DNA of 2,355 bases from Escherichia coli. GTDB lineage: Bacteria > Pseudomonadota > Gammaproteobacteria > Enterobacterales > Enterobacteriaceae. Location of the stretch: NCBI RefSeq assembly GCF_003334405.1, contig NZ_QOWM01000037.1; one strand, given 5' to 3'. Of this stretch, positions 131 to 2,355 are shown one piece after another. The translations under genes and the position numbers were made by a program. How positions within the stretch are numbered: position 1 is the first letter of the stretch; each line of letters opens with the position of its first letter. A model generated the notes under the pieces. It was not told the DNA's origin and searched no databases. It saw nothing but the letters and a program-made list of their open reading frames with translations.

Positions 131-595
131 TTATTCTGCCTGTTCCGGCTTAGTCCTCTCAATGAGGAAATCTTCCATGAAATGCCCCTCATCAAGCAGC
201 TTCTGTAAAGCAAGCGGACGCTTTCCATTACCAGACCATTCTCTGATCTCGCCATTTTCATCCTTAAAGCGGTATTTAGCCTTTCTTACTCCGCCTTTGG
301 CTTTCCGCCTGGTTTTTACTGTATCTGCTGTTACAGGAGCAAGGAGTGATTCGGGATCAAGACCTAAAGATATGATGTATTCAATGGCCTGCTGACGTTT
401 GGCTTCAAGTTCCTGGCGTTCAGCCGCTTCACGTTCAGCATCTTCACGACGTTCTTCAACAACAACGTTCAGTTTTTCCTGCATTTCGAGCAATTGCTCA
501 AAATCAACTTCACGGGCAAAAACACGCAATGAACGAATATTCATCATAGTACGGCTGATAATACCGTATTCATCTTCTTTAGTCAGTTCGCTCAT
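131..595 (-). CDS. hns: H-NS-family DNA-binding nucleoid protein (plasmid/island-type H-NS paralogue), 154 aa
   Basis: Translation shows the H-NS architecture: N-terminal coiled-coil oligomerisation region (..MMNIRSLRVFAREVDFEQLLEMQEKLNVVVEERRE.. vs H-NS ..[35 protein letters not shown]..), a basic linker (KTRRKAKGGVRKAKY), and the C-terminal DNA-binding core YRFKDENGEIREWSGNGKRPLAL (H-NS: [23 protein letters not shown]), motif codons at 215..238. ATG at 593..595 with a strong Shine-Dalgarno AAGAGGA 8 nt upstream. Stop TAA at 131..133. Confidence 0.9.
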   Translation of the reverse strand: MSELTKEDEYGIISRTMMNIRSLRVFAREVDFEQLLEMQEKLNVVVEERREDAEREAAERQELEAKRQQAIEYIISLGLDPESLLAPVTADTVKTRRKAKGGVRKAKYRFKDENGEIREWSGNGKRPLALQKLLDEGHFMEDFLIERTKPEQAE

Positions 596-603
596 ATAAT
601 TAA

Positions 604-610
604 TCCTCTT
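604..610 (-). promoter_or_regulatory. Shine-Dalgarno sequence (AAGAGGA) for the H-NS-like gene, in the 17-bp hha-hns spacer
   Basis: Minus-strand sequence upstream of the ATG at 595 reads AATAAGAGGATTAATTAT-ATG; AAGAGGA is complementary to the 16S rRNA 3' end and sits 8 nt from the start codon. The short spacer and absence of room for a promoter suggest co-transcription with hha. Confidence 0.6.
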
Positions 611-612
611 AT

Positions 613-819
613 TTAGTGTACGTACTTCCAGACGCCGGAAGGCACCTTATCATAAAGTTTATTCATCACCAGTTCTGCTCGGCGATGATCTGCGGCAGAA
701 TAAAATGCCTCTGATTCTGATAAAGGCAGCTTGTAACAGTTAATCTCAATAACTTTTTCAAGAGTATCTCTTGATGTACATTTTCTTAACTGAAAAAGCC
801 ATTCCTGCTTTGTTTTCAC
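613..819 (-). CDS. hha: Hha/YmoA-family nucleoid-associated modulator (H-NS co-repressor family), 68 aa, GTG start
   Basis: Translation [68 protein letters not shown] matches, along its whole length, my recollection of E. coli Hha (..[54 protein letters not shown]). Start codon is GTG (817..819 on minus), preceded by an AAGGG Shine-Dalgarno-like sequence about 7 nt upstream; an in-frame TAA two codons upstream excludes a longer N-terminus. Stop TAA at 613..615. Confidence 0.88.
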
Positions 820-2355
820 TTCTTAGCCCTTGCCGGAAAACCCAGCTTCCCTGTTTTCTTATCCTCAAGGACAAGAACTGTATCATACGTTCCACCACTT
901 TTCTTTTTAAATCCCTTAATCAAATCGGTTTTCCCTGATTTAACCAGTTTTTCGGCCTGTGCCTGGGTGATTTTCTTACCAGAAAACTCACTCCAGATTT
1001 TAAATTCACATCCGGTACAGAAATAACCTTTCGGCCTGATAACAATATGTTTACCACAGGAAGGGCAGGGAGAGTCCAGGCGTTGAAACTGCCCTGCTGG
1101 CGCAGCGGGTTCAATCTTCATCTCGCCCAGGTCAACATCAGAAATCATGCCTGTTAGTTCACCGTACAGATCATTAATAAACTGTTCAACCGTCAGGTCG
1201 CCATTTTCTATGGCAGCCTGCTTTTCAGACCATAATGCTGTCATATCAGGATTAACCGCTATACCAGGCAGGGCATCAATAAGCGCATATCCGGTATCAG
1301 TAGGAATAAGTTTCCCTTTTTCCAGCGTGATATAGTTTCTTTTCTTCAGCGTTTCCAGAATGGCTGCGCGGGTAGCTGGCGTACCAATGCCACCATGTTC
1401 ATCTTTTTTGTCTTTATCCTTATCCTTCAGTAATTTTTTTATCACTGGATCAGTGACAAAATCCGCGACACGAACAAGCGCAGCAAGCAAGGAGGCTTCG
1501 GTGAATAACGGCGGCGGTGTTGTTTTCTTCTCATTAACAATAACTTCTTTTGTCGTCAGTGTTTCTCCTGTGCGAATTTTACAGAGCAGTTCAAAAGCGG
1601 AATCATCATTATCTTCTGATTCACCTTCGTCTGTGGTTTCCGCGCCAATAAACGCCTCAAATCCGCTGTCAGTTGTTTTTCTGGCACGGGCATAGAACGA
1701 CTCATCACCACACTGAATGGCAACCGATACTTCCTGGTATGCTTTTTCAGGCATGAACTGAACAAGATAGTGTTGTGCGATCGCCAGGTAAACATTGCGC
1801 TCGTCGGTGCTGAGTGCGTTAACATCAGGCACACTGGCGGTAGGGATTATCGCAGTATGCGCAGTCACCTTTGCACTGTTAAACGCTTTGCTTTTACGTG
1901 AAGAATCAATATCCAGCGACTGAGGAAAGACTGATTTCAGGGCATCGATAACCTGCGGCGCTTCGCTGAATTGTTCATCAGAAAGATATGAGCAATCAGA
2001 GCGGTTATAAGTAATCGCTTTATATTTTTCACGTAATTGTTGCGTAATATCCAGCGTTTTTTGTGCCGTCATTTTGAACTTTTTGTTCATGTATTGCTGG
2101 AGTCTGACCAGGTTAAACGGCAACGGCGCAGCCGTTTTTTTATCATCAGTTGCTGCCGCTTCAACTGTAGCCGGTTTTCCTGCAAGGGATGCTGCCGTTC
2201 CGTCTGCCCACGCTTTATCAAGTAATTTACGGTCTGTCAGCGGAGCAAATTCCCCTGGCTTCCAGTTCGCCCTGATAACATCAGCACCACGCTGAAAAAC
2301 TCCGGTCATGGTGTAGTAAAAACTGGATTTATGGTTCTGGTTAGCACGGGTACGA
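816..2355 (-). CDS. topB: DNA topoisomerase III-like (type IA topoisomerase), partial: N-terminal part including the Toprim domain lies beyond the right edge of the window
   Basis: Minus-strand ORF 816..2309 (497 aa from the first in-window ATG) stays open in the same frame from 2310 to the window edge (no stop in codons 2310..2354), so the gene is truncated by the window. The translation carries the Topo III-type active-site motif [12 protein letters not shown] (catalytic Tyr codon at 2007..2009), the conserved type IA motif GIGTPATRA (1365..1391), and a C-terminal C4 zinc-ribbon CPSC-x13-CTGC (1008..1067) followed by a Lys-rich tail. Stop codon TGA at 816..818. Confidence 0.9.

What the first reader, a model, noticed from the sequence alone, without database searches (positions are those of the whole stretch)
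131..2355. topB-hha-hns cassette: candidate horizontally transferred nucleoid-silencing module
Three co-directional genes (type IA topoisomerase III-like, Hha-like, H-NS-like) are packed with a 4-nt overlap and a 17-bp spacer, so they are very likely one transcription unit. Plasmid-borne H-NS paralogues (for example Sfh of the IncHI1 plasmid R27) are known to let an incoming element avoid titrating host H-NS. I recall an hns/hha/topB block as part of IncX plasmid backbones, but that is memory, not a search result. Coupling a topoisomerase to an H-NS/Hha pair is itself mechanistically under-studied (supercoiling control linked to silencing).
Basis: partly seen in the sequence, partly recalled or inferred. 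Interest (0 to 1): 0.55.

Follow-up and report, generated by a model that had tools for sequence, protein, structure and literature searches.

The report
IncX4 plasmid topB-hha-hns silencing module
This is the well-known topoisomerase III / Hha / H-NS-like gene block of the backbone of IncX4 conjugative resistance plasmids, whose H-NS-like protein has already been shown to coat and silence its own plasmid, so the finding is correct but ordinary.

Summary
On the minus strand the window carries the 3' 1.5 kb of a type IA topoisomerase III gene (816..2355, cut by the window edge), an Hha gene (613-819) and an H-NS-family gene (131-595). The first two overlap in GTGA. A 17-bp spacer containing a Shine-Dalgarno-like GAGGA separates the last two.

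The window is 100% identical to a 32.6-kb E. coli IncX4/MOBP/MPF_T conjugative plasmid. It matches 1373 plasmid records, and 776 of 794 places in complete E. coli genomes are on plasmids. It is not a chromosomal core locus.

The block is already described. It is the "gem" region (topB, hha, h-ns) of IncX1 plasmids. The H-NS paralogue belongs to the HppX clade and is 95% identical to HppX_CROD2 of the IncX4 plasmid pCROD2. ChIP-seq showed that HppX_CROD2 binds its own plasmid about 40-fold more selectively than chromosomal H-NS does. Relatives (Sfx, HppX3) repress IncX conjugation, with Hha as co-repressor.

A link between the topoisomerase and silencing has been speculated in print but not tested. 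A single operon is plausible but unproven, since R6K has an internal sfx promoter.

Side observations: the block was recently exchanged between IncX4, IncX1-type and IncI2 backbones. One breakpoint lies inside hns. An IS26 target lies in a hairpin just 3' of hns.

Verdict: already known, low interest.

The parts
816..2355 (-). 3' 1540 nt of the plasmid topoisomerase III gene (topB / topBx), residues 206-717 of 717. The catalytic Tyr321 codon is at 2007-2009, the Zn-ribbon CPSC...CTGC at about 1005-1070, and the Toprim_Crpt C-terminal repeat at about 843-1013. The TOPRIM domain and the start codon lie outside the window.
   Evidence: One search aligns residues 1-610 to E. coli Topo III, and ITYNRSDC matches ITY328PRSDC. 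Coordinates were checked.
816..819 (-). GTGA overlap of the topB stop (TGA 818-816) with the hha start (GTG 819-817). This geometry is typical of translational coupling. An AAGGG Shine-Dalgarno-like element lies 7 nt upstream.
   Evidence: Sequence read directly. The same 4-nt overlap is annotated in pCROD2 and in mcr-1-type IncX4 plasmids.
613..819 (-). hha: a 68-aa Hha/YmoA-family H-NS co-repressor.
   Evidence: Pfam HHA 4e-28. NCBIfam Hha subfamily above its cut-off. 99% identical to pCROD2 Hha. Aligns to Hha in the Hha/H-NS complex 4ICG and to YmoA, and the AADHR core is invariant.
596..612 (-). 17-bp hha-hns spacer with a GAGGA ribosome-binding site.
131..595 (-). hns-like gene (hppX, HppX clade), 154 aa. 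[quoted passage not shown] The DNA-binding loop SGNGKRP (215-235) replaces the canonical TGQGRTP.
   Evidence: Pfam. NCBIfam H-NS and StpA equivalog scores fall below their cut-offs (107 vs 211, 97 vs 202). 95% identical to HppX_CROD2. Alignment A1. PDB matches to H-NS N- and C-terminal domains.
71..120 (.). Nested inverted repeats immediately 3' of hns (two ACATACGTATGT copies, 13- and 19-nt arms). On the hns transcript they form a 14-bp hairpin followed by a second hairpin. No U-tract follows, so this is not a canonical intrinsic terminator. It may be an mRNA 3' end stabiliser or a DNA-level element.
   Evidence: repeats I1, I2, D4.: -47.6 kcal/mol, z = -5.6, 0 of 200 shuffles fold as well; a paired C>G / G>C change keeps the I2 pairing in other IncX4 plasmids, and one plasmid has a 25-bp deletion between the repeats.
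108..115 (.). Site (CTGTGTGA) that is duplicated as the 8-bp target-site duplication of an IS26 insertion in the widespread 33.3-kb IncX4 plasmids, 16 bp after the hns stop codon. IS26 is absent from this window.
   Evidence: IS26 ends GGCACTGTTGCAAA...TTTGCAACAGTGCC are flanked by CTGTGTGA on both sides in L008.
882..911 (-). Weak sigma-70-like match (TTTAAA-18-TATGAT, 9 of 12) inside the 3' end of topB, about 63 nt upstream of hha. It is a candidate internal promoter only.
   Evidence: where promoter-like sites are not enriched (6 found against 4.0 +/- 2.0 expected). The hexamers are kept in close relatives but not in IncX3 or IncX5. The analogy is the R6K sfx promoter at the end of topBx (10.64898/2026.02.23.707533).

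Best explanation
The window is a piece of the conserved backbone of an IncX4 conjugative plasmid of Enterobacteriaceae. It is the gene-expression-modulation ('gem') block topB-hha-hns, lying downstream of, and co-directional with, the pilX/T4SS-taxB-trbM transfer genes.

The H-NS paralogue (HppX clade) oligomerises through its H-NS-like N-terminal domain. It binds the AT-rich DNA of its own plasmid and keeps the plasmid's costly genes transcriptionally silent, above all the conjugative transfer operon. The co-encoded Hha binds the N-terminal domain of the H-NS-like protein and strengthens bridged, repressive filaments. Together they lower the cost of carriage and keep conjugation off by default until an activator (PixR in IncX4) overrides them.

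The topoisomerase III homologue is an intact type IA enzyme with a C-terminal Zn-ribbon and Toprim_Crpt extension. Its role is not established. The most likely roles are unlinking or resolving plasmid replication or transfer intermediates, and/or adjusting local supercoiling on which HppX binding depends.

What is shown:
- Gene identities, plasmid location, synteny and conservation (here).
- Plasmid-selective binding of a 95%-identical protein (literature).
- Conjugation repression by the IncX2, IncX3 and IncX1b paralogues, and co-repression by Hha (literature).

What is inferred:
- That this IncX4 pair represses pilX.
- That the plasmid Hha pairs with HppX.
- That the three genes are co-transcribed and translationally coupled.
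- Any functional link to TopB.
For: Location. The window is 100% identical to NZ_CP070012.1, typed IncX4/MOBP/MPF_T, which carries a replication initiator, taxC, taxB and virB2-11. It matches 1373 plasmid records, 1296 of them conjugative. In complete E. coli genomes 776 places are on plasmids and 18 on chromosomes.

Proteins. The catalytic Tyr and an alignment to E. coli Topo III over residues 1-610 are. The H-NS R12/R15 equivalents (R21, R24) and the Hha AADHR core are invariant. Literature holds that R12 is needed for Hha binding and is retained in HppX (PMC7544231).

Same architecture elsewhere. pCROD2 has the same arrangement, with HppX 95%, Hha 99% and TopB 98% identical. topB-hha-hns is also present in IncX1-type and IncX5 plasmids, and topB-hns in IncX3.

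Literature.
- The 'gem' region topB/hha/h-ns of IncX1 plasmids (PMC5023117).
- 'sfx immediately downstream of topB' in the syntenic IncX backbone, and Hha co-repression of R6K conjugation that depends on Sfx (10.1101/2024.07.10.602937).
- Sfx silences the vir operon with Rho and needs negative supercoiling (10.64898/2026.02.23.707533).
- HppX3 silences the T4SS promoter (PMC11915502).
- Deleting plasmid hns raises conjugation and fitness cost in IncX3 and IncX1b (PMC11880322).
- HppX_CROD2 has about 40-fold higher specificity for its own IncX4 plasmid than chromosomal H-NS has (PMC13308145).

Co-expression. The GTGA overlap, the 17-bp spacer with GAGGA, and the absence of terminator-like sites on the coding strand are consistent with co-expression.
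Against: No experiment on this exact plasmid is available. Repression of pilX by the IncX4 HppX/Hha pair has not been reported in the papers I could read.

In the IncX4 plasmid pHNSHP23, transposon insertions were tolerated everywhere except pir, tsxB and mcr-1. topB, hha and hns are not among the 18 genes required for transfer (PMC8725589). This fits a repressor role but shows no essential function.

The IncX4 DNA-binding loop (NGKR) differs from the RGR loop of Sfx and HppX3. Sfx loss had no measurable fitness effect in the laboratory (10.1101/2024.07.10.602937). Extrapolation from those paralogues, which are about 48-59% identical, is therefore not safe in detail.

Co-transcription is unproven, because R6K has an sfx promoter inside the end of topB. 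The role of TopB is speculative. topB occurs without hns on IncI2 and many other conjugative plasmids, and IncX3 and IncX2 lack a plasmid hha.
Confidence: 0.82

Rival explanations
1. Sfh-type 'stealth' module. The plasmid H-NS paralogue mainly tops up the cellular H-NS pool, so that the incoming AT-rich plasmid does not titrate chromosomal H-NS away from its targets. Silencing of plasmid transfer genes would be secondary.
For: The plasmid is AT-rich (41% GC). The protein keeps the H-NS oligomerisation and DNA-binding domains. [quoted passage not shown] Deleting plasmid hns in IncX3 lowers host fitness (PMC11880322).
Against: In its native host, HppX_CROD2 shows little association with the chromosome, so it does not supplement chromosomal sites (PMC13308145). 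The IncX3 fitness effect disappears when the conjugation activator prfaH is also deleted, so the cost comes from derepressed transfer genes and not from H-NS titration (PMC11880322). H-NS and StpA cannot replace Sfx for R6K repression (10.1101/2024.07.10.602937).
Confidence: 0.2
2. Adjacency without functional coupling. TopB serves plasmid DNA metabolism (decatenation or resolution of replication or conjugative-transfer intermediates, as proposed for other plasmid Topo III enzymes). It sits next to hha-hns only because of shared backbone history and has no role in silencing.
For: Close topB homologues occur without hns on IncI2 plasmids, at 82-96% DNA identity. More distant ones occur on Campylobacter and Pseudomonas conjugative plasmids. 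Hha genes are on at least 5000 plasmids, nearly all without an adjacent topoisomerase. IncX3 TopB is only 41% identical and has a different C-terminal architecture, yet keeps the same position. The function of plasmid topB was called 'not elucidated', and no quinolone-resistance or mutator phenotype was found (PMC4207749).
Against: topB-(hha)-hns synteny is kept across IncX1, X2, X3, X4 and X5 despite deep sequence divergence (10.1101/2024.07.10.602937). The genes overlap or abut. Sfx silencing depends on supercoiling (10.64898/2026.02.23.707533). In IncX3, topB itself is reported among the additional genes on which VirBR counter-silences HppX3 (PMC11915502).
Confidence: 0.45
3. Three independently transcribed genes rather than one operon. 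hha-hns, or hns alone, is driven by a promoter inside the 3' end of topB.
For: The R6K sfx promoter is reported at the end of topBx (10.64898/2026.02.23.707533). IncX3 and IncX1b hns complement deletions when cloned with what their authors call native promoters (PMC11880322). A weak sigma-70-like match lies at 882-911 on the coding strand.
Against: The GTGA overlap and the 17-bp spacer leave no room for regulatory DNA between the genes. Promoter-like matches are not enriched over shuffles, and none reaches more than 9 of 12. The candidate hexamers are not conserved in IncX3 or IncX5. An internal promoter and read-through from topB are not mutually exclusive.
Confidence: 0.4

Closest known systems
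HppX_CROD2 / Hha / TopB block of the IncX4 plasmid pCROD2 of Citrobacter rodentium (Stringer et al. 2026 preprint, PMC13308145)
   Same: Same replicon type, gene order, strand arrangement and 4-nt topB/hha overlap. The proteins are 95% (H-NS-like), 99% (Hha) and 98% (TopB) identical.
   Different: The last 9 residues of the H-NS-like protein differ. The spacer is 15 bp rather than 17 bp. The DNA downstream of hns is unrelated: pCROD2 lacks the hairpin region at window 1-130.
'gem' (gene expression modulation) region topB-hha-h-ns of IncX1 plasmids such as pOLA52, pIS15_43 and pIS04_68 (PMC5023117)
   Same: The same three genes in the same order on an IncX backbone. In the IncX1-type plasmids sampled here, TopB is 99% and Hha 99% identical to the window.
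   Different: In those plasmids the H-NS-like protein is chimeric relative to this one. It is IncX4-like up to about codon 60, then IncX3-like with an SGRGRAP DNA-binding loop. No orf191 lies upstream of topB.
Sfx of R6K (IncX2) and HppX3 of blaNDM IncX3 plasmids
   Same: HppX-clade H-NS paralogues encoded immediately downstream of a plasmid topB. They repress the T4SS/vir transfer genes and prefer their own plasmid. Sfx is helped by Hha.
   Different: The IncX3 homologue sampled here is 48% identical to the window protein. The DNA-binding loop is RGR rather than NGK. No plasmid-borne hha lies between topB and hns, and R6K uses chromosomal Hha. IncX3 TopB is 41% identical and 775 aa with an extra Zn finger. 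The activators differ: ActX/PrfaH and VirBR versus PixR in IncX4.
Sfh and Hha of IncHI1 plasmids R27 / pSf-R27 (HppH clade)
   Same: A plasmid-borne H-NS paralogue plus a plasmid-borne Hha on a conjugative plasmid, involved in silencing and in control of conjugation.
   Different: A different H-NS clade with the canonical QGR motif. The literature read here does not place these genes in a topB-linked block, and I did not examine R27 myself. Sfh binds the same chromosomal targets as H-NS ('stealth'), whereas the IncX4 protein largely ignores the chromosome in its native host (PMC13308145, PMC7544231).
E. coli chromosomal H-NS, Hha and Topoisomerase III (TopB)
   Same: The same folds and key residues: H-NS R12/R15 equivalents, the Hha AADHR core, and the Topo III catalytic Tyr and DPDxEG motif.
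   Different: The H-NS and StpA equivalog cut-offs are not reached. TopB carries a C-terminal Zn-ribbon plus Toprim_Crpt that is absent from the 653-aa chromosomal enzyme. The chromosomal genes are unlinked.

Membership tests
IncX plasmid backbone 'gem' / topB-(hha)-hns module | Located on a plasmid with an IncX replicon and the IncX transfer genes (taxA/C, taxB, pilX/VirB-type T4SS) | tested here: met
   100% identity to NZ_CP070012.1, typed IncX4/MOBP/MPF_T, with replication initiator, taxC, ddp1, taxB and virB2-11 annotated.
IncX plasmid backbone 'gem' / topB-(hha)-hns module | Co-directional order topB, then hha, then hns, tightly packed | tested here: met
   The same order is found in pCROD2, mcr-1-type IncX4, IncX1-type and IncX5 plasmids.
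H-NS family, HppX (IncX plasmid) clade | N-terminal H-NS dimerisation/oligomerisation domain with the R12/R15 equivalents | tested here: met
   Pfam PF22470 5.7e-20. R21, R24 and the NIR..R..ARE motif are invariant in alignment A1. Matches to 3NR7 and 4ICG_B.
H-NS family, HppX (IncX plasmid) clade | C-terminal H-NS DNA-binding domain | tested here: met
   Pfam PF00816 8.7e-09. Matches to 2L93 and 1HNR. W120, G122, G124 and P127 are invariant.
Canonical H-NS / StpA orthologues | Q/RGR AT-hook-like motif (TWTGQGRTP) and a score above the NCBIfam equivalog cut-off | tested here: not met
   The loop is EWSGNGKRP. Scores are 107 against a cut-off of 211 (H-NS) and 97 against 202 (StpA). It is therefore a diverged paralogue and not H-NS or StpA. 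Divergence at these positions is itself described as typical of HppX (PMC7544231).
Hha/YmoA family | HHA domain, subfamily-level score, and a conserved H-NS-binding core | tested here: met
   PF05321 4e-28. NF008191 scores 107 against a cut-off of 90. A42-R46 (AADHR), A48 and E49 are invariant, and the protein is 60% identical to E. coli Hha.
Hha/YmoA family | Physical binding to the partner H-NS-family protein | not testable with these tools
   Inferred from conserved interface residues and from the Sfx-Hha interaction reported for R6K (10.1101/2024.07.10.602937).
Bacterial type IA DNA topoisomerase III | TOPRIM plus Topoisom_bac domains, the catalytic tyrosine, and a subfamily score above cut-off | tested here: met
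   Pfam. NF005829 scores 625 against 597 and TIGR01056 scores 533 against 516. Y321 aligns with E. coli Y328, and DPDDEG with DPDREG. The TOPRIM part lies outside the window and was taken from the identical plasmid record.
Bacterial type IA DNA topoisomerase III | Decatenation / relaxation activity | not testable with these tools
   No biochemical data were found for any IncX TopB. Its function was described as not elucidated (PMC4207749).
Sfh-type 'stealth' H-NS paralogue | Binds the chromosomal H-NS regulon and prevents titration of host H-NS by the plasmid | not testable with these tools
   Literature on the 95%-identical HppX_CROD2 reports little chromosomal binding in the native host (PMC13308145), which argues against membership in the functional sense.
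Single operon | One promoter, no internal terminators or promoters, and transcripts spanning both junctions | tested here: inconclusive
   There are no terminator-like sites on the coding strand and only weak promoter-like matches. R6K has an internal sfx promoter (10.64898/2026.02.23.707533). No transcript data could be accessed here.

The most novel reading that the evidence does not exclude
The plasmid topoisomerase III may be mechanistically required for silencing. By acting in cis on its own replicon it would set a plasmid-specific topology that the diverged HppX/Hha filament recognises ('cognate plasmid specificity'). The GTGA-coupled translation of topB and hha would tie enzyme and co-repressor levels together. 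In addition, the block behaves as an exchangeable unit: topB ATG to hns codon ~60 is about 97% identical in DNA between IncX4 and IncX1-type backbones, with TopB 99% identical, while the neighbouring TrbM is 68% identical. Recombination in the hns linker swaps DNA-binding domains and could re-target the silencer. The first part is already a published speculation (PMC13308145; 10.1101/2024.07.10.602937) and is untested. The domain-swap observation is mine and rests on a handful of plasmids.
Probability: 0.2. Interest if true: 0.6.

Novelty: already known. Interest (0 to 1): 0.18.

Why it matters
IncX4 plasmids are major vehicles of mcr-1 (colistin resistance), and IncX3 plasmids of blaNDM. The hns/hha block helps explain why these plasmids are cheap to carry and conjugate only on demand, so it is relevant to plasmid persistence and to anti-plasmid strategies. 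As a discovery, however, the locus adds nothing. The genes, their order, their plasmid context and the function of the H-NS paralogue are all in the literature, including a ChIP-seq study of a 95%-identical protein. The one open question it touches is whether the adjacent topoisomerase III contributes to silencing or to plasmid-specific targeting. That question is already being asked by the groups working on Sfx and HppX.

Tried and rejected
- **Chromosomal core-gene origin:** rejected. 776 of 794 places in complete E. coli genomes are on plasmids, and only 12.7% of genomes have the block.
- **Phage origin:** rejected. There is one trivial 84-bp hit in 50,697 phage records. PHROGs gave only unnamed families.
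- **Defence-system membership:** rejected. PADLOC matched only the topoisomerase-like N-terminal part of DpdF, which is domain-level homology.
- **Structured RNA in the window:** Rfam at E <= 1 gave only sub-threshold microRNA-model hits on the hairpin at window 71-120. The only real hit (AgrB) lies outside the window.
- **Canonical intrinsic terminator after hns:** none found. The strong hairpins lack a U-tract.
- **Promoter prediction:** coding-strand matches are not enriched over shuffles. The best internal candidate is not conserved in IncX3 or IncX5. The operon question stays open.
- **orf191 upstream of topB:** no Pfam, NCBIfam, PHROG or PADLOC hit. A single-sequence AlphaFold model was useless (mean pLDDT 33). 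I ran no further search on it because it lies outside the window.
- **PixR paper supplements:** searched for topB, hha and H-NS data; nothing found.
- **Scripted BLAST of the window against fetched loci:** failed because only L001 was exported to the script machine. I used the alignment tools instead.
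Full report
**1. Observation**

The window holds three co-directional ORFs on the minus strand.

- A long ORF ends at 816-818 and runs off the right edge of the window. Translating 2354..816 gives 512 residues plus a stop.
- A 68-codon ORF lies at 819..613 with a GTG start.
- A 154-codon ORF lies at 595..131 with an ATG start.

The stop of the long ORF and the GTG of the next gene form GTGA (816-819). The last two genes are separated by 17 bp, ATAAGAGGATTAATTAT, which contains a GAGGA ribosome-binding site.

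All three ORFs have strong family matches.

| Protein | Pfam | NCBIfam |
|---|---|---|
| Full-length first protein (717 aa, from the identical plasmid record) | Toprim, Topoisom_bac (7.5e-97), Toprim_Crpt | Exceeds curated cut-offs of two topoisomerase III subfamily models |
| 68-aa protein | HHA, 4e-28 | Exceeds the Hha subfamily cut-off |
| 154-aa protein | Both H-NS domains | Below the H-NS and StpA equivalog cut-offs |

The third protein is therefore a diverged paralogue. The window lacks TopB residues 1-205, including the TOPRIM domain.

**2. Where it comes from**

- Megablast against PLSDB gives a 100% full-length match to a 32.6-kb E. coli plasmid. There are 1373 matching records, of which 1296 are typed conjugative.
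- That plasmid is typed IncX4 / MOBP / MPF_T. It carries a replication initiator, taxC, ddp1, taxB, virB2-virB11 and HicAB.
- Among 5426 complete E. coli genomes, 689 carry a match. 776 of 794 places are on plasmids.

The recollection of an IncX backbone block is correct.

The block sits at the distal end of a long run of co-directional genes that begins with the T4SS genes. In the 33.3-kb IncX4 plasmids it follows trbM after about 310 bp and a 190-codon ORF homologous to orf191.

**3. What is already known**

The block has a name. In IncX1 plasmids (pOLA52, pIS15_43, pIS04_68) it is the 'gem' (gene expression modulation) region, encoding topB, hha and h-ns (PMC5023117).

The H-NS paralogues of IncX plasmids form the HppX clade. 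This is the most diverse H-NS clade, with divergent residues at the QGR motif and a retained Arg12 (PMC7544231). Functional work exists for several members.

[quoted passage not shown] It represses conjugation where H-NS and StpA cannot, and chromosomal Hha co-represses in an Sfx-dependent way (10.1101/2024.07.10.602937).
- **Sfx mechanism.** Sfx acts with Rho on the vir operon, is enriched on the plasmid, and loses its effect when gyrase is inhibited. [quoted passage not shown]
- **HppX3 (IncX3).** It silences the T4SS promoter and is counter-silenced by VirBR. topB is reported among the additional genes on which VirBR counter-silences HppX3 (PMC11915502).
- **Plasmid hns deletions.** In IncX3 and IncX1b these raise conjugation and cost, via the activator PrfaH (PMC11880322).
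- **HppX_CROD2 (IncX4 plasmid pCROD2).** This is the most directly relevant case. ChIP-seq showed about 40-fold higher specificity for its own plasmid than chromosomal H-NS has. [quoted passage not shown] They speculated that this enzyme creates the topology that is recognised (PMC13308145).

I fetched pCROD2. It has the same topB-hha-hns arrangement, including the 4-nt overlap. Its proteins are 95% (H-NS-like), 99% (Hha) and 98% (TopB) identical to those of the window.

**4. Anatomy of the proteins**

*TopB.* It aligns with E. coli topoisomerase III over residues 1-610. The catalytic tyrosine is conserved (ITY321NRSDC against ITY328PRSDC), as is the DPDxEG motif. The Tyr codon is at window 2007-2009. 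Beyond residue 610 it has a CxxC...CxxC zinc ribbon and a Toprim_Crpt repeat, which the 653-aa chromosomal enzyme lacks.

*Hha.* It is 60% identical to E. coli Hha, and the AADHR core is invariant.

*The H-NS-like protein.*
- It has a 9-residue N-terminal extension.
- It keeps the R12/R15 equivalents (R21, R24) and the oligomerisation helix.
- Its DNA-binding loop reads EWSGNGKRP. Chromosomal H-NS has TWTGQGRTP, and the IncX1-type, IncX3 and IncX5 proteins have WSGRGRxP.

These features fit an Hha-HppX complex that forms H-NS-like filaments with altered DNA-contact chemistry. [quoted passage not shown] PDB alignments to the solved H-NS and Hha domains agree with them.

**5. Distribution and exchange of the block**

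| Plasmid type | Arrangement |
|---|---|
| IncX4 | topB-hha-hns |
| IncX1-type | topB-hha-hns |
| IncX5 | topB-hha-hns |
| IncX3 | topB-hns with an 11-bp gap, no hha; TopB only 41% identical |
| IncI2 (L004) | orf191-topB, then an inserted ORF, then hha; no hns |
| IncI2 (L005) | orf191-topB only |

Hha genes as such are on at least 5000 PLSDB plasmids. Among the rows sampled, only the class at least 90% identical to this one (about 790 records) overlaps a topoisomerase gene.

Between this IncX4 plasmid and an IncX1-type plasmid, TopB is 99% identical while the neighbouring TrbM is only 68% identical. The high-identity segment starts exactly at the topB ATG. It ends near hns codon 60, at window position ~417. 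After that point the IncX1-type gene resembles the IncX3 gene.

The block, or most of it, has therefore moved recently between backbones. One recombination joint lies inside hns and separates the oligomerisation domain from the DNA-binding domain.

**6. One transcription unit?**

- The overlap and the short spacer leave no room for intergenic regulation.
- All four terminator-like hits in the window are on the non-coding strand.
- Promoter-like hits are not enriched: 6 were found against 4.0 +/- 2.0 expected.

This is compatible with co-transcription and with translational coupling of topB and hha. It is not evidence for either.

Three points count against a simple picture. R6K has an sfx promoter in the end of topB. 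IncX3 and IncX1b hns genes complement deletions when cloned with what the authors call their native promoters (PMC11880322). A weak TTTAAA-18-TATGAT match lies 63 nt upstream of hha (882-911), although it is not conserved in IncX3 or IncX5.

The unit may also begin further upstream. A 191-codon ORF of unknown family ends 4 bp before topB, and it travels with topB into IncI2 plasmids at 95% identity.

In the IncX4 plasmid pHNSHP23 the PixR-activated pilX operon was mapped from cds9 to trbM. Its authors do not mention topB, hha or hns. These genes were neither required for maintenance nor among the 18 genes needed for transfer (PMC8725589).

**7. Most likely mechanism**

1. HppX and Hha are produced from the end of the transfer-gene array.
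2. HppX oligomerises and coats the plasmid's AT-rich DNA. The plasmid is 41% GC.
3. Hha binds the HppX N-terminal domain and favours bridged filaments.
4. The pilX/T4SS genes and other costly plasmid genes stay silent until PixR is induced.

TopB is an intact Topo III-type enzyme. I rate two readings of its role.

- An independent DNA-metabolism role: about 0.45.
- A real mechanistic link to silencing: about 0.2-0.3.

The Sfh-style 'stealth' reading is partly compatible, because host H-NS is excluded from the plasmid. It does not fit the near absence of chromosomal binding by the 95%-identical protein.

**8. Verdict**

The finding is real and correctly interpreted, but it is an already described backbone module of a very common plasmid family. 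Its interest is low. The residual interest lies in the untested topoisomerase-silencer link, which is already raised in the literature, and in the recombination and domain-swap pattern noted here.

Noticed in passing
window 71-120 (and 60-96): There are nested inverted repeats just 3' of the hns stop: two ACATACGTATGT copies, with 13- and 19-nt arms. On the hns strand the RNA folds at -47.6 kcal/mol (z = -5.6) into a 14-bp hairpin plus a second hairpin, with no U-tract. Other IncX4 plasmids carry a paired C>G / G>C change that preserves the alternative 13-bp pairing. One plasmid has a 25-bp deletion between the two repeats. The function is unknown; it could be an mRNA 3' end stabiliser, a DNA cruciform or a recombination site.
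   Followed up: partly
window 108-115; L008 3117-3944: In the widespread 33.3-kb IncX4 plasmids an IS26 is inserted 16 bp after the hns stop, inside the right arm of the inverted repeat. It has an 8-bp target duplication, CTGTGTGA, and its transposase gene is co-directional with hns. It splits the 3' hairpin of the hns transcript. An effect on hns expression is conceivable but was not examined.
   Followed up: partly
window ~417 (hns codon ~60) and L001 16771 (topB start): These are the recombination joints. The segment from the topB ATG to hns codon ~60 is about 97% identical in DNA between IncX4 and IncX1-type plasmids (TopB protein 99% identical), whose neighbouring TrbM is only 68% identical. 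Downstream of the joint the IncX1-type hns resembles IncX3 hns, with an RGR loop instead of NGK. This is a swap of the DNA-binding domain of the silencer.
   Followed up: partly
L001 16776-17351 (minus strand), outside the window: A 191-codon ORF ends 4 bp before the topB start. It is conserved at 95% identity next to topB on IncI2 plasmids. It has no Pfam, NCBIfam, PHROG or PADLOC match, and the single-sequence AlphaFold model was useless (pLDDT 33). It is probably the first gene of the same unit.
   Followed up: partly
L001 17394-17606 (minus strand), outside the window: An unannotated ORF of about 70 codons encodes a hydrophobic protein and is preceded by a strong AAGGAGG ribosome-binding site. 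It lies in the very AT-rich (31% GC) gap upstream of orf191. pCROD2 has a differently sized annotated small ORF at the equivalent place.
   Followed up: no
L001 13129-13224 and 13499-13586 (about 220-670 bp beyond the left edge of the window): A DinQ-like type I toxin gene, dqlB (RefSeq annotation), lies here together with an AgrB antisense RNA (Rfam RF02891, 62 bits against a gathering score of 40, E = 3.9e-09). This type I toxin-antitoxin pair sits between the hns block and the partition genes.
   Followed up: no
L004 about 3610-3633 (IncI2 plasmid): In one IncI2 plasmid the sequence right after the topB stop still reads GTGAAAGCAAAGCAGAAATG. This is a remnant of the hha 5' end. The intact hha lies about 930 bp further on, after an inserted ORF. 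The IncI2 arrangement therefore looks derived from the overlapping topB-hha arrangement.
   Followed up: no
L001 14618-16771 (TopB), residues 4-414: The only PADLOC hit is to the N-terminal part of DpdF of the Dpd DNA-modification defence system (E = 7e-71, positions 28-451 of a 1499-position profile). This is homology of the shared topoisomerase-like domain and not evidence of a defence role.
   Followed up: no
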